A stretch of DNA of 64,000 nucleotides, taken from Eubacteriales bacterium (GTDB lineage Bacteria; Bacillota; Clostridia; Oscillospirales; CAG-382). The position numbers and the translations under genes were made by a program. The stretch lies in the NCBI GenBank assembly GCA_045580005.1, contig JAZNMZ010000009.1, forward strand, positions 21,154-85,153, in the 5' to 3' direction. This document shows, one piece after another, positions 10,661 through 57,583 of this stretch (the stretch's first letter is position 1; every line of letters starts with the position of its first letter). The notes beneath the pieces are model-generated. The model ran no database searches and was not told the DNA's origin. It saw only the letters and a list, made by a program, of their open reading frames with translations.

Positions 10661-10732
10661 TTTGATTTTCTCCTTTTCGATCATGTTTTCTGCTACAAGT
10701 ATATTTTGATAAAAGGAGAAATATTACAAAGA

Positions 10733-12304: not shown

Positions 12305-12332
12305 ACACTGTTTTATCCTATCAAAACAGTGT
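12305..12332. promoter_or_regulatory. inverted repeat ACACTGTTTT-N8-AAAACAGTGT (candidate operator)
   Basis: Perfect 10-bp arms about 100 bp upstream of the promoter candidate. No T-run follows, so it is unlikely to be a terminator. Confidence 0.3.
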
Positions 12333-12435: not shown

Positions 12436-12464
12436 TTGACAACGCAAAAATATTGTTGTATCAT
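12436..12464 (+). promoter_or_regulatory. sigma-A-type promoter candidate for the BMC operon
   Basis: TTGACA (12436-41), 17-nt spacer, TATCAT (12459-64). The first operon gene starts about 60 nt downstream. Confidence 0.45.
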
Positions 12465-12526
12465 TATATTAGTATATAATAACTAACTTGGATAATTGTC
12501 TAAAATTTTATACAAGGTGGATAGAT

Positions 12527-13306
12527 TTGAAGAAAGCGGTAATCAGTGATATAGACGGCTCTTTAATATACAGAGGTCATCATCTGAACAAGACAAGATT
12601 TCCTCTTATGCTCAAAAAGCTGAGCGACAAAGATATTGCTTTTTGTCTTGCAACCGGCAGAACATACGGCGATGTCGCGTGTCTTTTTGGAGATCTTCTT
12701 GACGGGGTACATATTTTATGCTGTGACGGTGCGCTTAGCATCACAGGACACAAGATTGTTCATTCCTTCCCTATCAGAAGCTATTTTCTTTCCTACTTTT
12801 TTGATTTTGCAAAAAACCAAACCGACACCTATGTAAATCTTCATAAATCCTTTGCGATTGAATTTCACGGATATACGCACTCATATATTTTCACTCACAG
12901 TGCTTGTCTTTATCATAAGGAAGCTGCAAAGCTGAAAAACCTCAAGAGGATTTCTGCTCTTGAAGAAATAAAAGAAGATATATTTAAAATCAGTCTGTTT
13001 AGCAACAGCTCGATTGGTACACCTGACGGATTGCGTATTTGCTACGATAAGGGCGGTATTACCGAGTATGTACCCAAAGCTGCCACAAAGCTCTCGGCAG
13101 CAAAAGACCTGTCGGATAGACTTGGCATCCCACTTAGCTGTTTCACAGCATTCGGCGACAGCGATAACGACGCTGAGTTGCTTTGCGCCTGCGGGTGTTC
13201 ATACTCCACTTACTGCGCGCAAAAAGAAGTATTTGAGCTGACAGACCACCATACAAGAGATGTGATCGGCACAGTGATAAGACTTGCCGATGAAAAAGTA
13301 TTATAA
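12527..13306 (+). CDS. Cof-type HAD-IIB phosphatase
   Basis: Motif I SDIDGSL, ATGR, and motif IV GDSDND. TTG start at 12527 preferred, with AAGGTGGA 5 nt upstream, giving the typical (M)KKAVISDIDG N-terminus. Confidence 0.8.
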   Translation: MKKAVISDIDGSLIYRGHHLNKTRFPLMLKKLSDKDIAFCLATGRTYGDVACLFGDLLDGVHILCCDGALSITGHKIVHSFPIRSYFLSYFFDFAKNQTDTYVNLHKSFAIEFHGYTHSYIFTHSACLYHKEAAKLKNLKRISALEEIKEDIFKISLFSNSSIGTPDGLRICYDKGGITEYVPKAATKLSAAKDLSDRLGIPLSCFTAFGDSDNDAELLCACGCSYSTYCAQKEVFELTDHHTRDVIGTVIRLADEKVL

Positions 13307-13331
13307 ACAACACCACAAAAGAGGTTGTAAA

Positions 13332-15860
13332 ATGGATAAGTACACAGTAAAAGACATTCCGAAAACCGAAAGAATCTCAAGGCTGATAGATGCGCTCTAC
13401 GACCATCTCCCCGAGATTGAGGCAGACCGCGCGGTTCTTCTTACAGAATCTTATAAGATGACAGAAAACGAGCCAATTATCACACGCAGAGCAAAGGCAT
13501 TTGCGCATATTTGCGAGAATATTCCTGTCACTATCCGCGACAACGAGCTTATTGTCGGAAGTGCAACAAAGGTGCCGAGAGGCTGTCAGGTGTTCCCTGA
13601 GTTTTCGTTTGAGTGGCTTGAGTCGGAGTTTGATACAATTGAACACCGCACTGCAGATCCTTTCCATATTTCCGAACAGACCAAAGAAACACTTCACGAA
13701 GTGTACAAGTACTGGAAGGGTAAAACAACAAGTGAGCTTGCAACAGCGTATATGTCTCCCGAAACTCTCAAGGCTATCGAGCACAATATATTCACTCCCG
13801 GTAACTACTTCTATAACGGCGTAGGTCATGTTACCGTCAACTACGGTAAAATTTTAGCAAACGGACTTGACGGTATAATTGAAGAGGCAAAAAGCGCTCT
13901 TTCCGACATTAAGTTTTCTGATAGTGATTATTCAAAAAAGACTCACTTTTTAAACGCAGTTATTGAAAGCTGCAAGGCGGCAGAAACTTATGCCGCAAGA
14001 TACGCAAAACTCGCTCTTGAGCTCGCAGAAAAAGAAAAAGACCCTAAGCGCAAGGCAGAACTAATAGTTATTGCTTCTAACTGCTCTAATGTCCCTAAGA
14101 AAGGTGCTGCAAACTTCTATGAAGCGTGTCAGTCTTTCTGGTTTATACAGATGCTTCTGCAGACAGAGTCAAGCGGACATTCTATCTCGCCCGGCAGATT
14201 TGATCAGTATATGTATCCTTATTATAAAAAGGATATTGATGCAGGCAAAATAACTATGGAAGCGGCACAGGAGCTTATGGACTGTATCTGGGTTAAGCTC
14301 AATGACCTCAACAAGGCAAGAGACGCGGCAAGTGCCGAGGGATTTGCAGGTTACAGCCTTTTCCAGAATCTTATCGCAGGCGGTCAGGACGAAAACGGAC
14401 TTGACGCAACGAACGACCTATCTTTTATGTGCATACAGGCAACAAAGCATGTACTTTTGCCTCAGCCGTCTTTCTCTGTTCGTGTCTGGAACGGCACACC
14501 GCATGAATTTCTTATAAAAGCCGCAGAGCTCACACGCACTGGCGTAGGTCTTCCTGCATATTACAACGACGAAGTAATTATCCCCTCTCTTCTCAACAGA
14601 GGTCTTACTATTGAGGACGCGAGAGACTACAATATAATCGGATGTGTAGAGCCTCAGAAATCAGGCAAAACAGAGGGCTGGCATGATGCAGCGTTCTACA
14701 ATATGTGTCGACCGCTTGAGCTTGTTTTTACAGACGGGTACGATAACGGCGAGTTTATCGGAGTACATACAGGCGATGTAACAAAGTTTAAGACATTCGA
14801 TGAGTTCTATGACGCATACAAGGCGCAGAACAACTATATGCTTGGCCTTCTTGTGAATGCAGACAACGCTATCGATGTTGCGCACAGCGAGAGATGTCCC
14901 CTGCCGTTCCTTTCAGGAATGATAGAGGACTGTATAGGCAAAGGTAAGAGTGTACAGGAGGGCGGCGCTGTATATAACTTCACCGGTCCTCAGGGTTTTG
15001 GTGTTGCAAATATGGCAGACTCGCTTTATGCTGTCAAGAAGCTTGTATTTGATGAGAAAAAGATTACAATGTCAGAACTCAAGGAAGCTCTCGAACACAA
15101 CTTTGGAGAGGATATTCCCGACAGCATTGCGCAAAAGAAAACTGTAGAAGCAATAAAGAAGCTTTCGGAATCCGGAAGAGCGGTTACAAAGCTTGTCATT
15201 GAAGATACATATAAAAAAGAAAAATCTCTCGGTATGCAACAGTTCCAGAGAACAAGGTACAGAAAGATACGCGAAATGATTGAAGCTGTACCAAAGTTCG
15301 GCAACGACATCCCCGAAGTGGATGCATTTGCAAGAGATGTGGCTTATACTTATACAAGACCTCTTGAAACTTTCAAAAACCCGAGAGGTGGTATGTATCA
15401 GGCAGGACTCTACCCTGTTTCCGCAAATGTTCCTCTTGGTGCTCAGACTGGAGCCACTCCTGACGGCAGGCTTGCTTACACTCCTGTTGCAGACGGTGTA
15501 TCTCCCTCTGCTGGAAAAGACCTCAAGGGCCCTACAGCAACAGCTAATTCTGTATCAAAGCTTGACCATGGTATCGCTTCAAACGGTACATTGTTTAATA
15601 TGAAGTTCCACCCATCGGCACTTGAGGGCAGAGCTGGCCTTGAGAGCTTTGTGGCGCTTATACGAGCATACTTTGATCAGAAAGGCAGCCATGTACAATT
15701 TAATGTTGTAAGCCGTGAAACGCTTAAGGATGCTCAGCTGCACCCTGAAAACTATAAATCGCTTGTTGTGCGAGTTGCCGGATACAGCGCGCTCTTTACC
15801 ACGCTTTCAAAGTCGCTGCAGGATGACATCATCAACCGTACAGAGCAGGGCGGCTTCTGA
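13332..15860 (+). CDS. glycyl radical enzyme, B12-independent 1,2-propanediol dehydratase type
   Basis: C-terminal glycyl radical motif VVRVAGYSALF. Thiyl loop IIGCVEPQ (Cys-x-Glu). NGVGH histidine. 842 aa from the ATG at 13332, with AGAGG upstream. Counted from that start, the residues are His166, Cys438, Glu440 and Gly817. Confidence 0.9.
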   Translation: MDKYTVKDIPKTERISRLIDALYDHLPEIEADRAVLLTESYKMTENEPIITRRAKAFAHICENIPVTIRDNELIVGSATKVPRGCQVFPEFSFEWLESEFDTIEHRTADPFHISEQTKETLHEVYKYWKGKTTSELATAYMSPETLKAIEHNIFTPGNYFYNGVGHVTVNYGKILANGLDGIIEEAKSALSDIKFSDSDYSKKTHFLNAVIESCKAAETYAARYAKLALELAEKEKDPKRKAELIVIASNCSNVPKKGAANFYEACQSFWFIQMLLQTESSGHSISPGRFDQYMYPYYKKDIDAGKITMEAAQELMDCIWVKLNDLNKARDAASAEGFAGYSLFQNLIAGGQDENGLDATNDLSFMCIQATKHVLLPQPSFSVRVWNGTPHEFLIKAAELTRTGVGLPAYYNDEVIIPSLLNRGLTIEDARDYNIIGCVEPQKSGKTEGWHDAAFYNMCRPLELVFTDGYDNGEFIGVHTGDVTKFKTFDEFYDAYKAQNNYMLGLLVNADNAIDVAHSERCPLPFLSGMIEDCIGKGKSVQEGGAVYNFTGPQGFGVANMADSLYAVKKLVFDEKKITMSELKEALEHNFGEDIPDSIAQKKTVEAIKKLSESGRAVTKLVIEDTYKKEKSLGMQQFQRTRYRKIREMIEAVPKFGNDIPEVDAFARDVAYTYTRPLETFKNPRGGMYQAGLYPVSANVPLGAQTGATPDGRLAYTPVADGVSPSAGKDLKGPTATANSVSKLDHGIASNGTLFNMKFHPSALEGRAGLESFVALIRAYFDQKGSHVQFNVVSRETLKDAQLHPENYKSLVVRVAGYSALFTTLSKSLQDDIINRTEQGGF

Positions 15861-15897
15861 TTAGTTTACTTTAATAAATCTCTTACGGAGAAAAACA

Positions 15898-16689
15898 ATG
15901 ATTGAGCAATACAAAGACATAAAAGGGAGAGTCTTTGATATTCAAAGATTCTCTGTCCACGACGGACCCGGAATACGGACGATAGTATTCCTCAAGGGAT
16001 GTCGTCTTCGCTGTCGCTGGTGCTGTAATCCTGAGTCTCAGGAGTATGAAATTCAAAAGATGCTCAAAGGCGGCAAACAAGAAACCGTTGGCTACGACAC
16101 AACTGTAGGACAGGTTATGGAAGATATTCTAAAGGACGCACCATACTACAGACGCTCAGGCGGAGGTGTTACACTCTCGGGTGGTGAAGCGCTGTGTCAG
16201 CCTGATTTTGCGGTGGCTCTTCTTTCTGCTTGCAAGGAATACGGTCTGTCGACCGCTATTGAAACAACAGGCTTTGCAGACTATTCTGTGATAGAAAGAT
16301 ACATACCTGTGTGCGATCATTTTCTTATGGACATCAAACACACAAACAGCGACAAGCACAAGGAGTTCACTACACAGCCAAACGAACTTATCCTCGAGAA
16401 TGCAAAGAAGATTGCAAAAAACGCCAAGCACCTTGTGATAAGAGTACCTACCATCCCCACATTCAACGACACTGTCGAAGAAATATCCGACATTGCAAAA
16501 TTTGCGTCATCTCTTGTCAGTGTCGATGAGCTTCATCTTCTGCCATACCACAAGCTCGGTTATGACAAGTATGTGGGGCTTGGCCGGCAGTATCTTATGG
16601 GAGATCTCCCCTCGCCGGGTGCAGACAAAATGCAAGAGCTGAAAAAAGCTGCTGAAAAATACATAAACAATGTAATAATCGGCGGATAA
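15898..16689 (+). CDS. glycyl-radical enzyme activating enzyme (radical SAM)
   Basis: [13 protein letters not shown]3CX2C (CRLRCRWC) followed by CNPES, and GGE motif SGGEAL. 263 aa. Confidence 0.9.
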
Positions 16690-16717
16690 GCATCAAAAAC
16701 ACAAAGGATTGATTACG

Positions 16718-17113
16718 ATGAACAATATAGACAAGATTCTATCGCAATACAGGGGTCCTGGTGAAGACAAGCTGAGAATAATACAGGAGCTTGTTCCGGG
16801 TAAGCAGATAACACTTGCTCATATCATTGCAAACCCCAATGAGATTCTGTACCGGAAGCTCGGTCTTGATCCGTCACTTGACTACTCTCACGCCGCAATC
16901 GGAGTTATAACTATGAGTCCTAGTGAAACGGCAATTATTGCAGCTGATATAAGTATGAAAGCGTCGGGCGTTGAGCTTGGTTTTGTTGACAGATTCAGCG
17001 GTACTCTTATCATCACTGGAAGTATCTCGGATGTAGAAGCAGCATTCCGTGCTGTTCTTGAATATGCGGTAGAAAAACTCGGTTTTTCTGTATGTGAGCT
17101 TACAAGAACATAA
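16718..17113 (+). CDS. BMC shell protein, circularly permuted PduU/EutS type
   Basis: [22 protein letters not shown]-terminal region and a permuted BMC fold signature. ATG at 16718 with AAGGA upstream. Confidence 0.8.
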
Positions 17114-17116
17114 TTT

Positions 17117-17578
17117 ATGAAAAAAATTATTCTTATAGGACGCAGCGAGAGCGGTAAGACAACATTGACTCAAGCGCTCAAGGGCGAGAAGATCACATAC
17201 AATAAAACACAGTATGTAAACCACTATGATGTAATTATCGACACCCCCGGCGAATACATACAGACAAAGACGCTCGGAGGCGCGTTGGCAGTATACTCGT
17301 ATGAGGCAGATGTTGTCGGACTTCTTGTGAGTGCAACTGAGCCATTTTCACTGTTCAGTCCGAATGTAGTCAGTATGGCGACCCGCGAGGTTATCGGCAT
17401 TGTCACAAAAATTAACGACAACGGCGCAAACATTGCTCTTGCTGACAGATGGCTTGAGCTGTCTGGATGCAAAACAATTTTCCATGTAGACTCAAAGACA
17501 GGTGAAGGAATAACTGACATTCTCTCGCACCTCAAAGAGTCGGACGACGAGCCTCTCCCCTGGGAAAGCAAGTCGTAA
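17117..17578 (+). CDS. EutP/PduV family microcompartment-associated GTPase
   Basis: P-loop GRSESGKTTL, DTPGE and a size of about 150 aa. Typical of PduV/EutP. Confidence 0.85.
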   Translation: MKKIILIGRSESGKTTLTQALKGEKITYNKTQYVNHYDVIIDTPGEYIQTKTLGGALAVYSYEADVVGLLVSATEPFSLFSPNVVSMATREVIGIVTKINDNGANIALADRWLELSGCKTIFHVDSKTGEGITDILSHLKESDDEPLPWESKS

Positions 17579-17657
17579 AACATTTTCGTAAGCAAGGCGA
17601 AAGCCTACTTAAATAAAGTTACCATTTTTACTAAAATAAAGAAAAGGAGAAGAAAAA

Positions 17658-18461
17658 ATGGCATCAGAATACGCAATTAAAGTGCAGATGTGTGAAATCG
17701 GCAAGAGAATTTACGACAGAGGCATGGTTGCTTCTAACGACGGTAACATTTCTGTTAAGGTGGGCGCAGATGAATATCTTTGCACACCCACAGGTGTATC
17801 AAAGGGCTTTATGACACCCGAGTACATCTGTAAAGTAAACGGCAGAGGCGAAGTTCTTGAGGCTTATGAAGGCTTCAAACCCTCCTCAGAAATTAAAATG
17901 CATCTTCGTGTTTACAAGGAAAGACCTGATGTAAACTCTGTTGTTCATGCACACCCTATGTATGCAACAGGCTTTGCTATCGCAGGTATTCCGCTTACAG
18001 CACAGATCATGCCAGAAGCTGTTATCGCTCTCGGATGTGTTCCGATTGCTGAATACGGCACACCCTCAACTGAAGAGATTCCCGACGCAGTTTCTAAGTA
18101 TCTGCAGCACTATGACGCAGTTCTTCTTGAAAATCACGGAGCTCTCGCTTTCTCTGATTCACTTCTCAACGCATATCACAAGATGGAATCAGTTGAATTC
18201 TACGCACAGCTTATGTTCATCTCAACACTTCTCGGTGGTCCCAAGGAACTGTCACCCGAACAGGTTCAGAGACTTTACGAAATCCGCCGTCAGTTTGGTA
18301 TGAAGGGTAAGCACCCCGCTGACCTCTGTCCCAACCTCGCAGCAGGCAAGCCTGCTTGTCCTAATTGCACAGGCGACTGCGGCAGCCACACAGCAACATC
18401 AAGCGACGCCGATGTTATTTCCGAGATTACAAAGAGAGTACTTGCACAGCTCGGCAAATAA
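17658..18461 (+). CDS. class II aldolase (L-fuculose/L-rhamnulose-1-phosphate aldolase type) with C-terminal extension
   Basis: NDGNISV, SSEIKMH and VVHAHP zinc-ligand motifs. About 215-aa core plus a 53-aa tail ending in DADVISEITKRVLAQLGK. Confidence 0.85.
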   Translation: MASEYAIKVQMCEIGKRIYDRGMVASNDGNISVKVGADEYLCTPTGVSKGFMTPEYICKVNGRGEVLEAYEGFKPSSEIKMHLRVYKERPDVNSVVHAHPMYATGFAIAGIPLTAQIMPEAVIALGCVPIAEYGTPSTEEIPDAVSKYLQHYDAVLLENHGALAFSDSLLNAYHKMESVEFYAQLMFISTLLGGPKELSPEQVQRLYEIRRQFGMKGKHPADLCPNLAAGKPACPNCTGDCGSHTATSSDADVISEITKRVLAQLGK

Positions 18462-18477
18462 TTTTCGGTGACCATCT

Positions 18478-18984
18478 ATGGATAACGCTAAAATAAAAGG
18501 CATAGTAGATTCTATCTCATACGAACTGAAAAAGGAAAAGTCTACATACACGACAGACACAATTACTCTGCGTCTTGCAAAAAGGGTTGCAAAAAGAGTT
18601 GAACAAAGAGCAACTGAGCTTGGCGTCCACGCTGTTATTGCAATATGCTCGAATGCAGCAAGACCAGTTCTCGTACACTGTATGGATGACTCGTATATCG
18701 CGAGCTATGATATAGCTTTTAACAAGGCATATACATCCGCTTCGATAAAAATGTCTACAAAAGTACTCAAGGGACTGAGCCAGCCACACTCACCTCTTTA
18801 CGGCATTCAGAATACGAACGACGGAAAGATTGTGATTTTCGGCGGCGGTGAGCCCTTAGTACTTGGAGGCAAAATTATCGGTGCCCTCGGTGTCAGCGGT
18901 GGCAGCGAAGAGCAGGACACACTGCTTGCGGCATACGGAGCTTCGGTTCTCGAGGAAGAAGCTAAAGAATGCCTACAAATATAA
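18478..18984 (+). CDS. GlcG/HbpS-like DUF336 protein (PduO C-terminal domain-like)
   Basis: GGGEPLVLGGKIIGALGVSGGSEEQD signature, preceded by an extra N-terminal extension of about 25 aa. Confidence 0.8.
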   Translation: MDNAKIKGIVDSISYELKKEKSTYTTDTITLRLAKRVAKRVEQRATELGVHAVIAICSNAARPVLVHCMDDSYIASYDIAFNKAYTSASIKMSTKVLKGLSQPHSPLYGIQNTNDGKIVIFGGGEPLVLGGKIIGALGVSGGSEEQDTLLAAYGASVLEEEAKECLQI

Positions 18985-18998
18985 GATGGAGTAAAATA

Positions 18999-20222
18999 AT
19001 GGACTACAACAAGGAAAATATTGAAGAAATCGTGAAGCAGGTTCTTGCAGGCATGGTTGGCGAGGTGGCAACAGCTACCAGCGCTCCTGCCGCTCCCAGA
19101 AGAACTACTGGTGGAGCTGTTCCTTCAACAGCAAGAGTGGCTATGCTCACAGGCATCGAAAAGTTTGAGATCAAGACTTATCCTATGCCTGAAGTCGGCG
19201 ACGACGACATTCTTGTTAAGGTTGAGGGCTGCGGTATCTGCGGCACCGACGCTCACGAGTATAAGCGCGACCCGTTTGGCCTTATCCCTGTAGCACTCGG
19301 ACATGAGGGCACAGGCGAGATTGTCAAAATGGGCAAGAATGTAACAAAAGACAGTGCAGGAAAACCCCTCAAAGTCGGCGACAAGGTTGTAACCTGTATG
19401 ATATTTAAGGATAATCCAGATATCACAATGTTTGACCTTAACAAGCAGAATGTAGGCGGTGCTGATGTATACGGTCTTTTGCCTGATGACGATGTTCATC
19501 TCAACGGTTGGTTTGCCGATTACATCATTGTAAGAAAAGGCTCTACTATATTCAATGTAAGCGATCTTGACCTCGACTCAAGAATTCTTATCGAGCCCTG
19601 CGCAGTTCTTATCCACGCTGTAGAGCGTGCGAAGACAACTGGTATACTCCGCTTTAACAGCAGAGTAGTTGTACAGGGCTGCGGACCTATCGGTCTTATT
19701 TGTATCGCTGTACTTCGTACAATGGGTATCGAAAACATTGTTGCTGTTGACGGCAATGCCAAAAGACTCCAGTTTGCAAAGAGAATGGGTGCTGACCACA
19801 CAGTGAACTTTACAGAGCATAAGGGCATTGAAGCTCTTACAGATGCTGTAAAGGATGCTTTTGGCGGCTATCTTGCTGACTTTGCGTTTCAGTGTACAGG
19901 AAGCCCTGTAGCTCACGCAAACATCTATAAGTTTATCCGCAATGGCGGAGGTCTTTGCGAACTTGGCTTCTTTATCAACGGCGGCGACGCTACAATTAAC
20001 CCTCACTTTGACATCTGCTCAAAGGAAATCACAACTGTCGGCTCATGGGTATACACACTTCGTGACTACGCAACAACATTTGATTTTCTAAAAAGAGCAA
20101 TCGCTATCGGTCTTCCTATCAAAGAGCTTATCACACATAAGTATCCGCTTGACAAAATTAATGACGCGTTTATTACAAATGTCAAGATGGAAGGTCTTAA
20201 GATAGCTATAGTCAATAAATAA
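18999..20222 (+). CDS. Zn-dependent medium-chain (MDR) alcohol dehydrogenase with N-terminal encapsulation-peptide-like extension
   Basis: EGCGICGTDAHE and GHEGTGEIV zinc motifs, and the Rossmann motif VVQGCGPIGL. ATG at 18999 with GGAG upstream. The N-terminal 50 aa are a helix plus an Ala/Pro/Thr linker. Confidence 0.8.
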   Translation: MDYNKENIEEIVKQVLAGMVGEVATATSAPAAPRRTTGGAVPSTARVAMLTGIEKFEIKTYPMPEVGDDDILVKVEGCGICGTDAHEYKRDPFGLIPVALGHEGTGEIVKMGKNVTKDSAGKPLKVGDKVVTCMIFKDNPDITMFDLNKQNVGGADVYGLLPDDDVHLNGWFADYIIVRKGSTIFNVSDLDLDSRILIEPCAVLIHAVERAKTTGILRFNSRVVVQGCGPIGLICIAVLRTMGIENIVAVDGNAKRLQFAKRMGADHTVNFTEHKGIEALTDAVKDAFGGYLADFAFQCTGSPVAHANIYKFIRNGGGLCELGFFINGGDATINPHFDICSKEITTVGSWVYTLRDYATTFDFLKRAIAIGLPIKELITHKYPLDKINDAFITNVKMEGLKIAIVNK

Positions 20223-20240
20223 TCAAAGGAGTAAATGCTA

Positions 20241-20555
20241 ATGACAGAAGCAGTCGGCATTATCGAGGTTTACGGTCTTGTAGCAGCCTTTGTCGCTTGT
20301 GACGCAGGATGTAAAGCAGCGAATGTGAGAGCAGAAACCTTTGATAAAAACAAACCAAAAAAGCCTGACGAGCTCAAGGTGCCGCTTATTGTGGCTGTTA
20401 AGTTCAGAGGAAGTGTTGACGCGGTAACATCGGCTATAGATGCAGCCGAAGCTGCGGCAAACCAGGTATCAGGCGTAGTAACAAAACACATTATAGCCCG
20501 TCCCGAGAACGGCACCGAAAAGATGCTCAAGCTCTCAGGACTCGACAAAAAATAA
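20241..20555 (+). CDS. BMC-H shell protein, divergent (expanded pore loop)
   Basis: BMC domain AVGIIEVYGLVAAFVACDAGCKAANV...HIIARP. The canonical IGSG pore loop is replaced by FDKNKPKKPDELKVP. Confidence 0.75.
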   Translation: MTEAVGIIEVYGLVAAFVACDAGCKAANVRAETFDKNKPKKPDELKVPLIVAVKFRGSVDAVTSAIDAAEAAANQVSGVVTKHIIARPENGTEKMLKLSGLDKK

Positions 20556-20588
20556 TTTAAAACTTTTATTAAACGGAGGAAATTTAAA

Positions 20589-20864
20589 ATGGCACAGGAA
20601 GCATTAGGAATGGTAGAAACAAGAGGTCTTACAGCAGCTATCGAAGCAGCAGACTCTATGGTTAAGGCCGCAGAAGTAACACTTGTTGGAACAGAAAAGA
20701 TCGGTTCCGGACTCGTAAGCGTTATGGTACGCGGTGATGTTGGCGCAGTTAAGGCGGCAGTTGAGGTTGGCGGCGAGGCAGCTTCCAGACTCGGAGAGCT
20801 TGTTGCTACACATGTAATCCCCAGACCTCACGCTGATGTTGAGAAGATTCTTCCCAAGTTCTAA
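20589..20864 (+). CDS. BMC-H shell protein, canonical PduA/PduJ type
   Basis: [25 protein letters not shown]...[22 protein letters not shown]...HVIPRPH. 91 aa. Confidence 0.92.
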
Positions 20865-20894
20865 TCTAAACCAGATACATAAAGGATGAAGAAT

Positions 20895-21200
20895 ATGAAA
20901 TCTCTAGGACTCGTCGAAGTTTCCGGAGTAGTTGCCGCAGTTGACGCGCTCGATATCATGTGCAAAAGCGCGAATGTATCTTTTGTTACATGGGAACGCA
21001 AGCTCGGTGGCAGACTTGTTACAATCATTGTAACCGGAAGCGTTTCAGATGTTACCGAAGCGATTGAATGTGTAAAGCAAAATGCGTCAGTCCCCCTCTG
21101 CGCGTATGCTGTTATTGCAAATCCGCACGAGGAAACAATCCGCATAGCTGAGCTTAGCGCATCAAGAATCAAAAAAGCAGCAGACGCTGCAAAAAATTAA
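20895..21200 (+). CDS. BMC-H shell protein, divergent (KLGGRLV pore, C-terminal helix)
   Basis: SLGLVEVSGVVAAVDALDIMCKSANV...VIANPH with a C-terminal tail IRIAELSASRIKKAADAAKN. ATG at 20895 preferred, with AAGGA 8 nt upstream. Confidence 0.75.
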   Translation: MKSLGLVEVSGVVAAVDALDIMCKSANVSFVTWERKLGGRLVTIIVTGSVSDVTEAIECVKQNASVPLCAYAVIANPHEETIRIAELSASRIKKAADAAKN

Positions 21201-21217
21201 CTTAAGAGGAAAATAAC

Positions 21218-21649
21218 ATGGCTGAAAAGATTGAAAAATCCGCACCCAAGAAAAAGACAGGCGCGGTAAAGAAAACAGCTACTGTATCCCCTGCTGCAAA
21301 ACCTGTTGCAGCAAAGACAGAAACAAAAACAACAAATAATACTAAAGATAGTCTAACGGAGGTAAAAGTTATGACACAGTTAGCATTAGGCATGATCGAA
21401 ACAAGAGGACTTGTTGCAGCAGTTGAAGCAGCAGATGCTATGCTCAAGGCAGCAAATGTAGAGCTTGTTGGAACTGAAAAGATCGGTTCCGGACTCGTGA
21501 GCGTAATGGTTCGCGGCGATGTTGGCGCAGTTAAGGCAGCAGTTGAAGCTGGTGCTTCTTCTGCAGAGCGTCTCGGCGAAGTTATTGCAACTCATGTAAT
21601 CCCCAGACCTCATGCAGATGTTGAAAAGATTCTTCCCGCCCTTAAATAA
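21218..21649 (+). CDS. BMC-H shell protein, PduA/PduJ type, with a 51-aa Lys/Ala/Thr-rich N-terminal extension (alternative internal start at 21371)
   Basis: The C-terminal 92 aa are a close paralog of 20589..20864. Both the ATG at 21218 (AGAGGA upstream) and the in-frame ATG at 21371 (GGAGG 8 nt upstream) have good RBSs. Confidence 0.8.
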
Positions 21650-21709
21650 GGCGACCCTTAAATAAGAGCAATCTTATACAATAATACGAATCTTTTTAAC
21701 CTCGGTTGT

Positions 21710-21736
21710 CCTGCGAAGACCTCGCGTCTTCGCAGG
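21710..21736 (+). other. GC-rich intra-operon stem-loop (no T-run)
   Basis: CCTGCGAAGAC-CTCGC-GTCTTCGCAGG, a perfect 11-bp stem in the 164-bp gap between the shell BMC-H genes and the BMC-P gene. Confidence 0.5.
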
Positions 21737-21813
21737 GGACTCCCGAACACCTGCCGAAAAATCGGCAAAATACCAAACAGATATCTAATTGATATCGGAT
21801 TAAAGGTGAAAAT

Positions 21814-22080
21814 ATGATTATTGGAAAAATCGTCGGAAATGTAGTTTCTACAAAAAAGAACGAAAACCTAACTGGTGGAAAGTTCCTTGTTGTGGAAGTA
21901 TATTCTTCTATGGCGAACGATAAAAGAAAAATGGTGGCAGTTGACAATGTCGGAGCCGGAATGGGCGACATTGTGTTGGTAGCACAGGGCAGTGCCGCAC
22001 GACTTGCTTGTCAGGATGAAAAGCTTCCTATTGACGCAGCGGTTGTCGGTATTGTAGATACAGCCACCGGACTGGAGTAA
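21814..22080 (+). CDS. BMC-P pentameric vertex protein (EutN/PduN/CcmL family)
   Basis: MIIGKIVGNVVSTKK...GKFLVVE...AVDNVGAG.GD.VLV. 88 aa. Confidence 0.9.
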   Translation: MIIGKIVGNVVSTKKNENLTGGKFLVVEVYSSMANDKRKMVAVDNVGAGMGDIVLVAQGSAARLACQDEKLPIDAAVVGIVDTATGLE

Positions 22081-22089
22081 TATAAAGTT

Positions 22090-23418
22090 ATGGTATTAAC
22101 AGAACTTGTTGAAACAATGAAGAAAAGCGGTGTCGCCGGAGCAGGCGGAGCCGGATTTCCTTCCTATGCAAAGCTCGACAAACGAGCTGACACCATAATC
22201 CTTAACTGTGCAGAGTGTGAACCGCTCCTCAAGCTCCATAGACAGGTACTCGAGAAATACGCTTACGAAATTTTAAGCACACTTACAACTATTGCTGACG
22301 CTGTAGAGGCAGACAGTGTTATTATCGCTGTTAAGTCCTCCTACAAGGGAGCTGTTGAGGCTGTTAAAAATAACCTCAGCAAATTTCCCAAGGTATCTAT
22401 CGGACTTCTTCCCGAAATTTACCCTGCAGGAGACGAAGTTGTAACAATCTATGAAACAACAAAGAGAGTTGTCGCTCCCGGTGCACTTCCTATCACTGTC
22501 GGAGTTACAGTTTTCAATGTTGAAACAATTCTCAATGTTTATAATGCAATCAATTCTGACTCCCCTGTTACTACAAAGTATATCACAATAGCAGGTGAAG
22601 TAAAGAATCCGATTACACTCAAAGCGCCTCTCGGTATTACATATGCAGAGCTTATAGAAATGGCAGGCGGAGCAACAGTTTCCGATTATAAGCTGATCGG
22701 CGGCGGTCCTATGACAGGTCGTATTGTTTCTCCTACTGATGTAGTAACAAAGACATCAAACGCTATTCTTGTTCTCCCCTCAAATCATTCCTTGATACTC
22801 AAAAAAACATCAAAGATTCAGATTGACATGAAGAGAGCTAAAGCGGCTTGCTGCCAGTGCAGAATGTGTACTGATTTGTGCTCAAGAAACCTGCTTGGTC
22901 ATCCTATTGAGCCACACGCGTTTATGCGTTCGGTTACAACAGGAAACACACAGGATGTTGCGCCCTTTATCAACACTATGTTCTGCTCACAGTGTGGACT
23001 TTGCGAGCTTTATGCTTGTGGTCAAGGTCTCTCCCCCAGAACTCTTATAGGTGAATACAAGAACGGATTGCGCGCTGCAGGAGTAAAGCCTCCGGTTGAC
23101 GCAAAGTTTGACGAAGTTCATCCCAACAGAGAAATCAGAAGAGTTCCTATGGGCAGACTCACAGCGAGACTTGGACTTACAGCATACAACAAACCTGCTC
23201 CCCTTGTTGACGAAACAGTTAATGCAGGCAAGGTTAAGATTATGCTCTCTCAGAGCATAGGTGCTCCTGCGACCGCTATTGTCAAAAAAGGCGACAAGGT
23301 TTCAGTCGGTCAGGTTATAGGAGAGGCTGCCGAAGGCAAGCTTTCTATGCCTGTACACGCTTCAATCAACGGCAAGGTTGTTGACGCAAACGACAGATTC
23401 GTTGTAATCGAGGCATAA
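22090..23418 (+). CDS. PduS-like Fe-S flavoprotein (RnfC/51K-like NADH-binding, SLBB, 2x[4Fe-4S])
   Basis: GVAGAGGAGFPSYAKL, an SLBB-like segment, and Cys clusters CCQCRMCTDLC and CSQCGLCELYAC. Confidence 0.85.
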   Translation: MVLTELVETMKKSGVAGAGGAGFPSYAKLDKRADTIILNCAECEPLLKLHRQVLEKYAYEILSTLTTIADAVEADSVIIAVKSSYKGAVEAVKNNLSKFPKVSIGLLPEIYPAGDEVVTIYETTKRVVAPGALPITVGVTVFNVETILNVYNAINSDSPVTTKYITIAGEVKNPITLKAPLGITYAELIEMAGGATVSDYKLIGGGPMTGRIVSPTDVVTKTSNAILVLPSNHSLILKKTSKIQIDMKRAKAACCQCRMCTDLCSRNLLGHPIEPHAFMRSVTTGNTQDVAPFINTMFCSQCGLCELYACGQGLSPRTLIGEYKNGLRAAGVKPPVDAKFDEVHPNREIRRVPMGRLTARLGLTAYNKPAPLVDETVNAGKVKIMLSQSIGAPATAIVKKGDKVSVGQVIGEAAEGKLSMPVHASINGKVVDANDRFVVIEA

Positions 23419-23483
23419 AGCAATTACATGGTTTTACCCCATAAAAACCCAGCCGAATAAAGATATATGGGGAGAAAGGATGT

Positions 23484-23509
23484 TTTTCATCAAAGATTTT
23501 TGATGAAAA
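23484..23509 (+). other. AT-rich hairpin in the pduS-pduT intergenic gap
   Basis: TTTTCATCAAA-GATT-TTTGATGAAAA, a perfect 11-bp stem. Confidence 0.35.
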
Positions 23510-23525
23510 CTCACGGTTATTATCA

Positions 23526-24074
23526 ATGAGTAAAGCAATCGGAATGGTTGAACTTCAGACAGTGTCCGCAGGCATTACCAGCGCGGATCTGATGCTTAAG
23601 ACCGCAGAGGTCGAAGTGATTGAAAGTCAGCCTGTATGTCCGGGAAAATACATAGTTCTTATCAGTGGCGATCTCAGCGCTGTTAAGGCGGCTGTGGACT
23701 CAGCTAAGGCAAAGGTCGGAGCGAAGCTTGTAGGAAGCTTTGTTCTCGGCAATCCTCATGAGTCTATTTTCCCTGCTCTTTATGGCGCAACTCAGGTAGA
23801 AGATGTAAAAGCTCTCGGTGTTCTTGAAACATTCTCGGCAGCTGATATTATCACTGCAGCTGACGCAGCAGCAAAGACATCTTTGGTTGACCTTATCGAG
23901 CTTCGTGTCGCCAGAGGTTTGGGCGGCAAATCCTATATGCTTATCACGGGCGATGTAGCAGCGGTTACAGCAGCTATCGAAAAGGCGCAGACAGAAGTGT
24001 CCGAAAACGGTATGCTTCTTGACAGCTCAATTATTGCAAATCCTGATAAGCGCCTTTGGGAAAATATCCTTTAA
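23526..24074 (+). CDS. BMC-T tandem-domain shell protein, PduT type
   Basis: Two BMC domains in 182 aa. PVCPGKY places a Cys at the position of the PduT pore [4Fe-4S] ligand. Confidence 0.85.
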   Translation: MSKAIGMVELQTVSAGITSADLMLKTAEVEVIESQPVCPGKYIVLISGDLSAVKAAVDSAKAKVGAKLVGSFVLGNPHESIFPALYGATQVEDVKALGVLETFSAADIITAADAAAKTSLVDLIELRVARGLGGKSYMLITGDVAAVTAAIEKAQTEVSENGMLLDSSIIANPDKRLWENIL

Positions 24075-24092
24075 TTTCTGAAAGGAATAAAA

Positions 24093-25235
24093 ATGAACAC
24101 ATTCAGACTATCTACTCAGGTCTGTTTTGACGAGAATGCACTCGATATTCTTTCTCAATACAAGAACTTGAATGCCGTTATTTTTACAGACGCCTTTATG
24201 GTAAAGTCAGGTGCTGCTGATAGAATAGCAAAGAAGCTTTCTGGCTGCTCAAGTGTAAAAATTTTTGGTGAAGTTATGCCTGACCCACCTATCGAGCTTG
24301 TAGTCAAGGGACTCAGATTTCTCCTTGATGCAAATGCTGATATCATAGTAGCTCTCGGAGGCGGCTCATCAATTGATGCTGCCAAAGCGGTACTTCTAAT
24401 GGCAAAAAGTTCAGGTAAAAAGCAGAATATCAAACTTGTGGCAATACCGACAACAAGCGGTACAGGCTCTGAGGTTACTCAGTTCTCTGTTATTACAGAT
24501 AAGCAGGCAGGTGTCAAGTATCCTCTTGTACATGAGGCTTTACAGCCGGATGTTGCGATTCTTGACGCAGAGCTTGTGCGCACCGCTCCCCCGTCGGTAA
24601 CTGCAGATACAGGATTTGATGTTATCACACACGCTCTTGAGGCATATATTTCTACAAAAGCAAACGAATTCTCTGACGCTCTTGCGGAAAAAGCTCTTGA
24701 GCTTGCCTTTGAATATCTGCCGCAGGCATACAAGGACGGCAATGATCTTGTTGCAAGAGAAAAAATGCATAAAGCCTCTTGCCTTGCAGGAATGGCATTT
24801 AACACCGTAAGTCTTGGGGTCAATCACGGTATTGCTCACGCGCTCGGTGCGAAGTTCCATATTCCTCACGGAAGAGCAAATGCAATGCTCCTGCCGCATG
24901 TTATGAAGTTCAACGCTGACCTGTCAAACAACTTTGACACAGCTGAATACACTGTAACTGCAAAGAAGCTGGCTAAAATAGCAAAAATCATTGGACTCAA
25001 TGCAACAAACACGCATTTTGCTGTCGTATCTCTTATAAAGCATATTCAGAGCTTGGAAAAAATATCAGGCATTCCCTCTACCCTTGCCGAAGCAAAGGTA
25101 TCAAAAGAGGATTATCTCGCTCAAAAGGATTCTATTATTAACAGTGCCCTTAACGATGCATGTACCGCGACCAATCCTCGCGAGATGACAGCACAGGGTG
25201 TTGAAAGTATCTTAAATTGTATTGCAACTTATTAA
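24093..25235 (+). CDS. iron-containing alcohol dehydrogenase (FucO/PduQ/EutG family)
   Basis: GGGSSIDAAK, PTTSGTGSEVT, TGFDVITHALEAY and HGIAHALG...HG metal-ligand histidines. 380 aa. Confidence 0.85.
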   Translation: MNTFRLSTQVCFDENALDILSQYKNLNAVIFTDAFMVKSGAADRIAKKLSGCSSVKIFGEVMPDPPIELVVKGLRFLLDANADIIVALGGGSSIDAAKAVLLMAKSSGKKQNIKLVAIPTTSGTGSEVTQFSVITDKQAGVKYPLVHEALQPDVAILDAELVRTAPPSVTADTGFDVITHALEAYISTKANEFSDALAEKALELAFEYLPQAYKDGNDLVAREKMHKASCLAGMAFNTVSLGVNHGIAHALGAKFHIPHGRANAMLLPHVMKFNADLSNNFDTAEYTVTAKKLAKIAKIIGLNATNTHFAVVSLIKHIQSLEKISGIPSTLAEAKVSKEDYLAQKDSIINSALNDACTATNPREMTAQGVESILNCIATY

Positions 25236-25265
25236 TACAGTTTTAGAATTAACCTGTCAAAAAAT

Positions 25266-25288
25266 GTCCGGGCACTCCGGACTTTTTT
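25266..25288 (+). terminator. intrinsic terminator at the end of the BMC operon
   Basis: GTCCGG-GCACT-CCGGAC followed by TTTTTTG. Confidence 0.7.
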
Positions 25289-25315
25289 GATATATCAATT
25301 TTTCAGGAGCAAACT

Positions 25316-32391: not shown

Positions 32392-32904
32392 TTAACCTTT
32401 TTCCAATATATTAAATCCAACTGCGGCAAGCCGCGTAAATTTCTTTTTTTCCTTATTATATTTATGCTCGCAGGAAGCCCTGACATATAGAGGCAGAAGC
32501 TTCTTGTACATAAAGCCTACTGCTCCCAACAAGCGATTCGCAGGATAAAGAATTAGCATGCAGGCTCTTTTTATGAGCACCAAAGCCAATTCAAACATCT
32601 TTTGAATAATAGGTCGCAAAAACTTTCCCGCAGTTTTTCTGTATAAGAATATTCCGCAGAAGAAAATAAAGAGATTGTACCACCTTATCTTGCCGTGATT
32701 ATATTCAAGAGCAAAGAAAAACAAAATTAAAAAAAGCACGACCGTTAAAATAAAATCATCAAGTGCGCTGATAATCCTATTTTTACTGAAAAATATATTT
32801 TTGACAGCTAAAATGTCAAAAAATATACCGCCTATTAATCCCAGAACAGCCGAATAAACCACAAAGGGCAACTGATTTTCCATCAAAAACACATTGTCAC
32901 TCAT
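32392..32904 (-). CDS. yabQ: spore cortex biosynthesis protein YabQ
   Basis: Polytopic membrane protein immediately downstream of, and overlapping, yabP. Confidence 0.65.
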   Translation of the reverse strand: MSDNVFLMENQLPFVVYSAVLGLIGGIFFDILAVKNIFFSKNRIISALDDFILTVVLFLILFFFALEYNHGKIRWYNLFIFFCGIFLYRKTAGKFLRPIIQKMFELALVLIKRACMLILYPANRLLGAVGFMYKKLLPLYVRASCEHKYNKEKKKFTRLAAVGFNILEKG

Positions 32905-56049: not shown

Positions 56050-56070
56050 TCTTTTTCTCCTTTTTATGTA

Positions 56071-57555: not shown

Positions 57556-57583
57556 AGGAAACACCTCCTCATTTATGTTCTGT

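What the first reader, a model, noticed from the sequence alone, without database searches (positions are those of the whole stretch)
12436..25288. GRM5-like glycyl-radical propanediol microcompartment operon with no aldehyde dehydrogenase, PduL or acyl kinase
Seen in the sequence: 18 co-directional genes with short gaps lie between a promoter candidate and a terminator. In order they are Cof-HAD, GRE, activase, PduU/EutS-type shell, PduV, class II aldolase, DUF336, Zn-ADH, four BMC-H, BMC-P, PduS, PduT and Fe-ADH. Established knowledge, from memory: this order parallels the fucose/rhamnose GRM5 loci of Clostridium phytofermentans and Roseburia inulinivorans. Those loci carry an acylating aldehyde dehydrogenase (PduP/EutE type) and a PduL phosphotransacylase, and the aldehyde dehydrogenase is regarded as the signature core enzyme of metabolosomes. 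I find no ORF in 12.1-25.3 kb with the size or motifs of either enzyme, or of an acetate/propionate kinase. Inference: the lumen chemistry would be purely reductive (lactaldehyde -> 1,2-propanediol -> propanal -> 1-propanol), using 2 NADH per deoxyhexose. On paper this balances the reducing equivalents released when the DHAP half goes to acetate. The compartment would therefore act as an aldehyde-sequestering electron sink rather than a CoA/ATP-yielding metabolosome.
Basis: partly seen in the sequence, partly recalled or inferred. Interest (0 to 1): 0.85.

Follow-up and report, generated by a model that had tools for sequence, protein, structure and literature searches.

The report
Propanediol microcompartment operon lacking aldehyde dehydrogenase
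This is a real, intact rhamnose/fucose (GRM5-type) bacterial microcompartment operon that, like its relatives in at least eight other gut Clostridia species, lacks the aldehyde dehydrogenase and PduL normally found in such organelles, so it may only reduce propanal to propanol, unless those two genes lie elsewhere in the genome.

Summary
It runs from a promoter-like site at 12436 to a terminator at 25266-25282.

- **Gene content.** Pfam confirms every assignment. The glycyl radical enzyme (GRE) is a full-length ortholog of the Roseburia inulinivorans diol dehydratase (PDB 5i2a).
- **Missing enzymes.** No aldehyde dehydrogenase (AldDH), PduL or acyl kinase occurs anywhere in the 64-kb window. 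Pfam scans, tblastn and six-frame profile HMM searches all agree.
- **Not a one-off.** Of 67 related loci that extend past PduT, 59 carry AldDH and PduL, either inside the operon or as a 3' module. Eight lack both. Seven of these have the window's exact architecture, which ends in an Fe-ADH.
- **One lineage.** The window and these eight form a single clade. dN/dS is at most about 0.2 for 15 genes and about 0.3 for HAD, with synonymous sites saturated. Independent assemblies show the same gene order.

The reductive "electron sink" reading is plausible but unproven. I could not search any whole genome for a satellite AldDH/PduL locus. The 2021 BMC catalogue lists an undescribed "GRM5like" class of 44 loci that might overlap this type.

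Verdict: a new variant of a known kind, of moderate to high interest.

The parts
12436..12464 (+). Promoter-like site, TTGACA-17 nt-TATCAT (11 of 12 matches)
   Evidence: consensus match only, function not shown
12488..13306 (+). Cof-type HAD-IIB phosphatase, first gene of the operon. The true start codon is probably a few codons downstream.
   Evidence: PF08282 E=6e-25; TIGR00099/TIGR01484. Present at this position in 7 of the 8 AldDH-less relatives whose 5' end is held, and in many type C loci. It evolves fastest (26-43% identity, dN/dS about 0.3).
13332..15860 (+). Glycyl radical 1,2-propanediol dehydratase, 842 aa (the listed ORF starts at the TTG at 13284)
   Evidence: PF02901 + PF01228. 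Full-length match to the R. inulinivorans diol dehydratase 5i2a (1286 bits, residues 3-840 against 3-840). This includes the GCVEP Cys loop, the RVAGYS glycyl motif and the internal insertion typical of GRM3/4/5.
15898..16689 (+). GRE-activating radical-SAM enzyme, 263 aa, without the ferredoxin-like insertion
   Evidence: PF04055 + PF13353; TIGR02494. Ferlez 2019 states that only GRM5 activases lack the insertion.
16709..17113 (+). Permuted BMC-H shell protein (EutS/PduU type)
   Evidence: PF00936; NF012012 EutS E=2.5e-32
17117..17578 (+). PduV/EutP small GTPase
   Evidence: PF10662 E=1e-49
17658..18461 (+). Class II (fuculose/rhamnulose-1-phosphate type) aldolase. Its C-terminal extension ends ...DADVISEITKRVLAQLGK and is a putative encapsulation peptide.
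   Evidence: PF00596 E=1e-49 covers residues 10-186 of 267; sequence; FucA-type NCBIfam hits. The encapsulation role is inferred from the sequence pattern.
18478..18984 (+). HbpS-like / DUF336 protein
   Evidence: PF03928 E=3.6e-33. A known ancillary gene of GRM loci (Axen 2014).
18999..20222 (+). Zn-dependent medium-chain alcohol dehydrogenase. Its N-terminal extension of about 65 aa has an amphipathic start (MDYNKENIEEIVKQVLAGM) followed by an Ala/Pro/Thr linker, a putative encapsulation peptide.
   Evidence: PF08240 + PF00107; the catalytic domain starts near residue 77 of the 417-aa ORF. It is 80-90% identical across the 80 related loci returned. It is the standard GRM5 'lactaldehyde reductase', called 'propanol dehydrogenase' by Petit 2013.
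20235..20555 (+). BMC-H shell protein 1
   Evidence: PF00936
20589..20864 (+). BMC-H shell protein 2 (canonical PduA-like, 91 aa)
   Evidence: PF00936 E=7.6e-30
20886..21200 (+). BMC-H shell protein 3
   Evidence: PF00936
21218..21649 (+). BMC-H shell protein 4, with a 55-aa Lys/Ala/Pro/Thr-rich N-terminal extension
   Evidence: PF00936 covers residues 56-131 of 143; sequence
21710..21736 (+). Perfect 10-bp stem-loop (CCTGCGAAGA-CCTCGCG-TCTTCGCAGG) in the 164-nt gap before eutN. PduL sits at this position in canonical loci.
   Evidence: Read from the sequence. No T-run follows. No PduL remnant is present. Function unknown.
21814..22080 (+). BMC-P pentamer (EutN/PduN)
   Evidence: PF03319 E=1.1e-29
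22090..23418 (+). PduS-type flavin/Fe-S oxidoreductase (RnfC/NuoF-like NADH-binding and FMN-binding domain, two 4Fe-4S motifs)
   Evidence: PF01512, PF10531, PF13534, PF13375; TIGR01945 rnfC E=4.9e-66
23526..24074 (+). PduT-type tandem-BMC shell trimer with the pore cysteine (PVC38PGK)
   Evidence: Two PF00936 domains, E=2.6e-44. Cys38 read from the translation.
24093..25235 (+). Fe-dependent alcohol dehydrogenase, last gene of the operon, with no terminal extension
   Evidence: PF00465 + PF25137. Best solved relative is the ADH domain of AdhE, 3zdr (330 bits); FucO scores 188 bits. Present at this position in all the AldDH-less relatives.
25266..25290 (+). Intrinsic-terminator-like hairpin (GTCCGGGCACTCCGGAC) followed by TTTTTT
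54793..57564 (-). L-rhamnose isomerase RhaA (54793-56049) and an FGGY sugar kinase, RhaB-like (56071-57564). These are upstream pathway steps encoded 30 kb away, with no aldolase beside them.
   Evidence: PF06134 E=1.4e-202; PF00370 + PF02782. The link to the operon is inferred.

Best explanation
The operon encodes a GRM5-type glycyl-radical microcompartment for the lactaldehyde half of rhamnose or fucose. In this lineage it has lost the oxidative, CoA-dependent branch.

**Proposed pathway.** Rhamnose is converted to rhamnulose-1-phosphate by RhaA and the FGGY kinase encoded 30 kb away. The encapsulated class II aldolase cleaves it to DHAP and lactaldehyde. The encapsulated Zn-ADH reduces lactaldehyde to 1,2-propanediol. 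The glycyl radical dehydratase makes propanal. Propanal is then reduced to 1-propanol by the Zn-ADH and/or the co-transcribed Fe-ADH.

**Consequence.** No propionyl-CoA, propionyl-phosphate or ATP is made. The organelle consumes two NADH per deoxyhexose and acts as an aldehyde-confining electron sink. The DHAP half yields acetate and ATP.

**Open problem.** Nothing in the lumen would regenerate NADH. Reducing power would therefore have to enter from outside, either as NADH or as electrons passed through the PduT Fe-S pore to the RnfC-like PduS.

**Shown versus inferred.**
- Shown: gene content, orthology of the dehydratase, absence of AldDH and PduL from the operon and the window, the clade-wide conserved architecture, and purifying selection.
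- Inferred: which enzymes are encapsulated, which ADH does which step, the product spectrum, and the route of electrons.
For: 1. Every gene is assigned by Pfam or NCBIfam. The GRE is a full-length ortholog of the characterised diol dehydratase 5i2a.
2. No AldDH, PduL or acyl kinase occurs in the 64-kb window by three methods.
3. Eight species-level relatives (L001, L002, L023, L024, L039, L045, L062, L074) also lack both within +-10 kb. Seven of them share the exact HAD...PduT-FeADH layout.
4. In a neighbour-joining tree of aldolase + Zn-ADH + PduS + PduT (1286 columns), the window and these loci form one clade, sister to lineages that carry AldDH-PduL as a 3' module. This implies one loss or replacement event.
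5. All 16 genes are intact. dN/dS is at most about 0.2 for 15 genes and about 0.3 for HAD, and dS is saturated. The AldDH-less operon has therefore been kept under selection for a long time.
6. The same architecture appears, with independent gene calls, in ENA, NCBI and JGI assemblies (L082-L085). The EutN of that relative is indexed in 105 blocks of the collection.
7. Flanking genes differ between genomes. HAD-to-FeADH is therefore the conserved unit.
8. An Fe-ADH is present in all 9 AldDH-less loci (8 relatives plus the window), immediately after PduT in all but L024, where a reverse-strand DeoR gene lies between. By contrast it appears at the 3' end in 0 of 25 type B loci and 1 of 16 type C loci (opposite strand). 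A reductive enzyme sits where the oxidative module sits in the nearest relatives.
9. AldDH and PduL are missing together. This is expected if the CoA branch was dropped, since PduL only recycles CoA for AldDH.
Against: - No whole genome of this clade could be searched, so a satellite AldDH-PduL locus is not excluded. Satellite AldDHs are documented for the ACI and HO BMC types.
- In the nearest relatives the AldDH-PduL pair is already a detachable 3' module, often placed after the DeoR regulator. DeoR is also missing here, so the whole DeoR-AldDH-PduL unit could simply have moved.
- A lumen that consumes two NADH per turnover with no internal regeneration contradicts the usual private-cofactor-pool model of metabolosomes.
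- The Fe-ADH has no recognisable encapsulation peptide, and no AldDH partner is available for it to piggy-back on.
- There is no physiological, transcript or proteomic data for any member of this clade.
Confidence: 0.5

Rival explanations
1. Conventional GRM5 metabolosome with a split locus. The AldDH-PduL pair, probably with the DeoR regulator, is encoded at a satellite site elsewhere in the genome and is targeted to the same shell. Propanal would then be disproportionated to propionate (with ATP) and propanol as in C. phytofermentans.
For: - In 41 of 59 AldDH-bearing relatives (types B and C), AldDH-PduL is a separate 3'-terminal module rather than embedded in the operon. In type B it follows the DeoR gene. 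One rearrangement could detach it.
- DeoR is also missing from this operon, and no regulator is visible nearby.
- Satellite AldDH loci are known for other BMC types.
- The rhamnose isomerase and kinase genes are already encoded 30 kb away, so pathway genes are scattered in this genome.
Against: - Nothing is found in 64 kb of this genome or in +-10 kb of eight relatives.
- An Fe-ADH has been recruited into the vacated 3' position in every member, followed in the window by a terminator-like hairpin.
- The operon is conserved as a self-contained block in different genomic contexts.
Confidence: 0.33
2. Leaky or hybrid arrangement. The compartment makes propanal, and part of it is oxidised outside the shell by a housekeeping AdhE or AldDH, or inside by an AldDH/PduL borrowed from a different BMC locus (EUT or PDU) in the same genome.
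For: - The catalogue reports that EUT2B loci co-occur with GRM5/5like loci, at about 5-15% of EUT2B loci for each listed type.
- The Fe-ADH is most similar to the ADH domain of AdhE and lacks an encapsulation peptide, so some propanal chemistry may be cytosolic.
Against: - It would defeat the purpose of confining the aldehyde.
- No second BMC locus or AdhE lies in the window.
- Mixed BMCs are normally avoided by regulation (Sutter 2021 text).
Confidence: 0.12
3. Decaying or non-functional remnant of a GRM5 locus, or an assembly artefact that dropped genes.
For: Two core genes are missing relative to the canonical type.
Against: - All 16 ORFs are intact.
- dN/dS is at most about 0.2-0.3 with saturated dS.
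- The architecture is identical in eight species-level relatives and in independent ENA, NCBI and JGI assemblies.
- No pseudogene remnants are present.
Confidence: 0.03

Closest known systems
GRM5 (fucose/rhamnose glycyl-radical microcompartment) of Roseburia inulinivorans, Clostridium phytofermentans and many Lachnospiraceae ('type A' here)
   Same: - GRE orthologous to the R. inulinivorans diol dehydratase over its full length.
- Short activase, EutS/PduU-type shell protein, PduV, and class II aldolase with a C-terminal extension.
- DUF336, and Zn-ADH with an N-terminal extension.
[quoted passage not shown]
- Same relative gene order.
   Different: - The canonical loci have a PduP-type AldDH (about 463 aa) between DUF336 and the Zn-ADH.
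- They have PduL (about 218 aa) between the fourth BMC-H and EutN.
- They have a DeoR regulator after PduT.
- All three are absent here. Here a HAD gene leads the operon and an Fe-ADH ends it.
Rearranged GRM5 loci of Acutalibacteraceae and Oscillospiraceae MAGs ('types B and C' here)
   Same: - They are the nearest relatives in the marker tree.
- They share the direct DUF336-ZnADH junction and the same shell set.
- Type C also begins with the HAD gene.
   Different: They end with (DeoR)-AldDH-(BMC-H)-PduL after PduT and have no Fe-ADH. The window's type ends with Fe-ADH and has no AldDH, PduL or DeoR.
'GRM5like' class (44 loci) in the Sutter et al. 2021 BMC catalogue
   Same: By its name it is a GRM5 relative. 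It is the only catalogued class that could already contain this architecture.
   Different: - Its content is unknown to me. The held supplement shows only a heading and an image placeholder.
- Labelled members seen in the tree files are Halanaerobium and a Firmicutes MGS:41 genome.
- The close EutN relatives of the window (72-100% identity) come from NCBI, ENA, JGI and Logan only. None comes from UniRef. This hints that the clade was not in the UniProt-based catalogue, but does not prove it.
BMC classes with an incomplete or absent metabolosome core (MIC, BUF) and types whose AldDH is on a satellite locus (ACI, HO type I)
   Same: They depart from the signature-enzyme + AldDH + PTAC + AlcDH paradigm.
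   Different: - Those types have unknown or unrelated signature enzymes.
- Here the aldehyde-generating steps and the substrate are well predicted, and only the oxidative branch is missing.
- No satellite has been demonstrated or excluded.

Membership tests
GRM5 microcompartment locus | GRE (PF02901 + PF01228) of the 1,2-propanediol dehydratase clade, with the internal insertion | tested here: met
   Full-length alignment to 5i2a, 1286 bits, residues 3-840 against 3-840, with Cys loop and glycyl motif conserved.
GRM5 microcompartment locus | Adjacent radical-SAM activase lacking the ferredoxin-like insertion (stated as unique to GRM5) | tested here: met
   263 aa with only PF04055 + PF13353. 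NCBIfam models of longer activases match in two pieces. Criterion taken from Ferlez 2019.
GRM5 microcompartment locus | Class II aldolase (PF00596) and Zn-dependent ADH (PF00107/PF08240) in the locus | tested here: met
GRM5 microcompartment locus | [quoted passage not shown] | tested here: met
   with the catalogue description. One EutS-type permuted hexamer is also present.
GRM5 microcompartment locus | Acylating aldehyde dehydrogenase (PF00171, PduP type) in the locus | tested here: not met
   Absent from the operon and the 64-kb window. The rest of the genome was not searchable.
GRM5 microcompartment locus | PduL phosphotransacylase (PF06130) in the locus | tested here: not met
   Same searches.
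GRM5 microcompartment locus | DeoR-family regulator in the locus | tested here: not met
   No PF00455 or PF08220 hit in the window. tblastn with DeoR gives a best hit of 21.9 bits.
Canonical metabolosome (signature enzyme + AldDH + PTAC + AlcDH with internal NAD/CoA recycling) | Aldehyde-generating signature enzyme and an alcohol dehydrogenase | tested here: met
   GRE plus aldolase, and two ADHs.
Canonical metabolosome (signature enzyme + AldDH + PTAC + AlcDH with internal NAD/CoA recycling) | AldDH and PTAC that regenerate NADH and CoA inside the shell | tested here: not met
   Not encoded in the operon or the window. A satellite locus was not testable.
Canonical metabolosome (signature enzyme + AldDH + PTAC + AlcDH with internal NAD/CoA recycling) | Physical encapsulation of the enzymes in a polyhedral shell | not testable with these tools
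   Terminal extensions resembling encapsulation peptides are seen on the aldolase and the Zn-ADH. There is no microscopy or proteomics.

The most novel reading that the evidence does not exclude
A clade of gut and rumen Clostridia runs a microcompartment with no aldehyde dehydrogenase anywhere in the genome. The organelle performs no CoA chemistry or substrate-level phosphorylation and serves purely as an electron sink. Its luminal NADH would be regenerated by electrons imported from cytosolic reduced ferredoxin, passing through the PduT [4Fe-4S] pore to the RnfC-like PduS. That would give PduS/PduT in B12-independent microcompartments a defined, essential role.
Probability: 0.2. Interest if true: 0.85.

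Novelty: new variant of a known kind. Interest (0 to 1): 0.6.

Why it matters
AldDH is treated as the common core of metabolosomes. The accepted logic of these organelles is that AldDH, ADH and PduL recycle NAD(H) and CoA privately inside the shell.

A conserved, selected GRM5 lineage whose operon has only the reductive half would be a natural experiment on that rule. If the shell truly lacks AldDH, reducing power must cross the shell. That would make the long-debated role of PduS/PduT as a trans-shell electron conduit in B12-independent compartments directly testable. It would also predict propanol-only deoxy-sugar fermentation in gut and rumen Clostridia, which affects propionate/propanol budgets and hydrogen economy in those ecosystems.

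If a satellite locus exists instead, the finding reduces to a split GRM5 locus of modest interest.

Tried and rejected
- **Source genome.** Exact look-ups of the window's PduS, GRE and LepA found nothing on record. The window's EutN is on record, but only a 1.6-kb Logan contig could be fetched. Cluster look-ups gave no accessions for it.
- **Satellite search.** I considered tracing AldDH/PduL homologs back to the same MAGs through accession blocks or contig look-ups. I dropped this because the caps allow only a handful of the hundreds of candidates to be checked.
- **'GRM5like' in the 2021 catalogue.** I read Supplementary Data 2 and 6, part 1 of the two-part Supplementary Information and the bioRxiv version. 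Only a heading and an image placeholder are held.
- **Zarzycki 2015.** PMC4644659 is not held.
- **Literature searches.** Searches for an AldDH-less GRM or a propanol-only, electron-sink BMC returned nothing relevant.
- **PduL remnant.** I looked for one in the 164-nt gap before eutN and found none.
- **RNA elements.** An Rfam scan of the whole window for a riboswitch or other RNA gave no hits.
- **Flanks of AldDH-less relatives.** I checked them for rhamnose or fucose genes. They are unrelated housekeeping genes.
- **Pseudogenised locus.** Rejected on dN/dS and conservation.
Full report
**1. What is in the sequence**

Between a sigma-70-like site (TTGACA-17-TATCAT, 12436-12464) and a GC-rich hairpin with a T-run (25266-25282) lie 16 co-directional ORFs with short gaps. 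Pfam and NCBIfam give the following order:

| Coordinates | Gene product |
|---|---|
| 12488-13306 | Cof-type HAD phosphatase |
| 13332-15860 | Glycyl radical enzyme (GRE) |
| 15898-16689 | Radical-SAM activase |
| 16709-17113 | EutS/PduU-type permuted shell protein |
| 17117-17578 | PduV |
| 17658-18461 | Class II aldolase |
| 18478-18984 | HbpS-like/DUF336 |
| 18999-20222 | Zn-ADH |
| 20235-20555, 20589-20864, 20886-21200, 21218-21649 | Four BMC-H |
| 21814-22080 | EutN |
| 22090-23418 | PduS |
| 23526-24074 | PduT |
| 24093-25235 | Fe-ADH |

The GRE aligns end to end with the Roseburia inulinivorans diol dehydratase 5i2a (1286 bits). The alignment includes the Cys loop, the glycyl motif and the internal insertion typical of propanediol-type GRM enzymes.

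Other sequence features, read:
- The aldolase has a C-terminal extension ending DADVISEITKRVLAQLGK.
- The Zn-ADH has an N-terminal extension starting MDYNKENIEEIVKQVLAGM, followed by an Ala/Pro/Thr linker. Both look like encapsulation peptides.
- PduT keeps the pore cysteine (PVC38PGK).
- The Fe-ADH has no extension. It is closest to the ADH domain of AdhE (3zdr, 330 bits; FucO 188 bits).
- PduS is RnfC-like.

**2. The claimed absence**

No ORF of 150 aa or more anywhere in the 64-kb window hits aldehyde dehydrogenase, PduL/PTAC, PTA or acetate kinase families. tblastn with AldDH, PduL and DeoR taken from related loci gives only noise of 25 bits or less. Profile HMMs built from 59 GRM5 AldDHs and 55 PduLs, run with filters off on every six-frame segment of 40 aa or more, give a best E-value of 0.04.

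The 164-nt gap before eutN is where PduL sits in canonical loci. It holds no remnant of PduL, only a perfect 10-bp hairpin.

The window does encode RhaA and an FGGY kinase at 54.8-57.6 kb. No aldolase lies beside them, so the operon's aldolase is the likely third step of rhamnose catabolism.

**3. Comparison with relatives**

A scan of species-representative genomes with the Zn-ADH gave 573 confirmed matches. The 80 best are 80-90% identical, and all come from Clostridia, mostly gut or rumen MAGs. The Zn-ADH is thus a standard, highly conserved GRM5 part, as the literature says (PMC6325248).

I mapped the window's proteins and AldDH, PduL and DeoR onto these loci. This gives four architectures:

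| Type | Loci | 3' end and AldDH/PduL position |
|---|---|---|
| A | 18, including Dorea and Lachnospiraceae | Published layout: AldDH between DUF336 and Zn-ADH, PduL before EutN, DeoR after PduT, sometimes Fe-ADH |
| B | 25, mostly Acutalibacteraceae | PduT-DeoR-AldDH-PduL |
| C | 16 | Starts with HAD; ends PduT-AldDH-BMC-H-PduL-DeoR |
| D | 8: L001, L002, L023, L024, L039, L045, L062, L074 | No AldDH or PduL within +-10 kb |

Seven of the eight type D loci have exactly the window's layout, HAD...PduT-FeADH. Thirteen further loci are too truncated to classify.

A neighbour-joining tree of aldolase + Zn-ADH + PduS + PduT (1286 columns) puts the window and all type D loci in one clade, next to types B and C. 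The simplest history is as follows. The B/C/D ancestor had AldDH-PduL as a 3' module. The D ancestor lost or detached that module once, and an Fe-ADH now occupies the position.

An Fe-ADH closes the operon in all 9 D-type loci counted with the window, directly after PduT in all but L024, where a reverse-strand DeoR gene lies between. It does so in 0 of 25 type B loci and 1 of 16 type C loci (opposite strand).

**4. Is the variant functional?**

- All 16 genes are intact in every D locus.
- Against L001, L002 and L062, dN/dS is at most about 0.2 for 15 genes and about 0.3 for HAD, with dS saturated.
- The same gene order, with independent gene calls and precomputed Pfam hits, occurs on contigs from ENA, NCBI (GCA_054285125.1) and JGI. 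The EutN of that relative is indexed in 105 blocks of the public collection.
- Flanking genes differ between genomes: MntP/NUDIX, ABC transporters, PFK, AzlC. HAD-to-FeADH therefore behaves as a self-contained unit.

Decay and assembly artefact are effectively excluded.

**5. Mechanism**

The aldolase makes lactaldehyde inside the shell. The Zn-ADH reduces it to 1,2-propanediol. The GRE makes propanal. An ADH reduces propanal to 1-propanol. There is no CoA branch and no ATP from the C3 half.

This consumes two NADH per sugar. It matches the NADH plus reduced ferredoxin released when DHAP goes to acetate only if ferredoxin electrons can reach NAD+.

The striking consequence is that no enzyme in the lumen would regenerate NADH:
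- Type B/C loci (Zn-ADH + AldDH) could be perfectly NAD-balanced internally.
- Type A loci can disproportionate propanal.
- Type D would need NADH or electrons from outside. PduT (Fe-S pore) and RnfC-like PduS are the obvious candidates. This step is pure inference.

**6. What remains open**

I could not examine any whole genome of this clade. The window's genome is not retrievable.

A satellite AldDH-PduL locus is a serious rival, for four reasons:
- The pair is already a detachable 3' unit in the nearest relatives.
- DeoR is missing too.
- Pathway genes are scattered in this genome.
- Satellite AldDHs are known for ACI and HO BMCs.

I put the models at about 0.5 for reductive-only, 0.33 for a satellite locus, 0.12 for cytosolic or borrowed oxidation, and 0.03 for a non-functional locus.

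**7. Novelty**

All text I could read describes GRM5 as having AldDH and PduL: Axen 2014, Petit 2013, Ferlez 2019, Sutter 2021 and a 2026 GRE review. Searches found no description of an AldDH-less GRM.

The 2021 catalogue lists 'GRM5like - 44 loci', but only an image placeholder is held, so overlap cannot be ruled out. The close EutN relatives of the window occur only in NCBI, ENA, JGI and Logan sources and not in UniRef. This hints that the clade post-dates that UniProt-based catalogue.

I class it as a new variant of a known kind. It is interesting to BMC specialists because it tests the AldDH-centred cofactor-recycling paradigm and the function of PduS/PduT. It is one whole-genome HMM search away from being either confirmed or reduced to a split locus.

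Noticed in passing
window 54793-57564 (- strand): L-rhamnose isomerase (RhaA, E=1.4e-202) and an FGGY (RhaB-like) kinase lie 30 kb from the microcompartment operon. No RhaD/FucA aldolase and no regulator lie beside them. The only class II aldolase in the window is the one inside the BMC operon.
   Followed up: partly
window 21710-21736: Perfect 10-bp stem-loop (CCTGCGAAGA-CCTCGCG-TCTTCGCAGG) with no T-run, in the 164-nt gap between the last BMC-H gene and eutN. The closest relatives (L001, L002) also have a 130-180-nt gap here, while the other AldDH-less subclade has almost none. It could be an RNA processing or attenuation element that lowers pentamer expression.
   Followed up: partly
window 12305-12332: Perfect 10-bp inverted repeat ACACTGTTTT-N8-AAAACAGTGT about 100 nt upstream of the operon's promoter-like site, in an AT-rich 364-nt intergenic region. 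It could be an operator or a weak bidirectional terminator. No regulator gene is nearby, and Rfam finds nothing.
   Followed up: no
window 21218-21649: The fourth BMC-H carries a 55-aa Lys/Ala/Pro/Thr-rich, low-complexity N-terminal extension. BMC-H proteins with N-terminal extensions, matching this one best, occur at the same position in relatives sampled from all four architectures, and type B loci have a second copy without it. Its function is unknown.
   Followed up: partly
window 61868-63298 (- strand): A single 476-aa ORF combines a YbeY endoribonuclease domain (residues 30-163) with an Era-type GTPase plus KH domain (188-461). These are normally separate neighbouring genes. It may be a real fusion, or a lost stop codon or frameshift.
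   Followed up: no
L-loci (e.g. L012, L033 versus L013): GRM5 loci fall into at least three AldDH-containing gene orders. Types B and C carry only the Zn-ADH plus AldDH/PduL and no Fe-ADH. On paper this would give an internally NAD-balanced, propionate-only compartment, the mirror image of the window's type.
   Followed up: partly
window 4538-6328 (-) and 53724-54743 (+): Two sizeable ORFs (596 aa and 339 aa) have no Pfam hit at E<=0.001. The second lies immediately next to, and divergent from, rhaA.
   Followed up: no
window 9098-10684 (-), 32392-32904 (-): SipL and YabQ sporulation proteins indicate that the host is a spore-forming Firmicute. The closest BMC relatives are annotated as Ruminococcaceae or Oscillospiraceae MAGs.
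   Followed up: no
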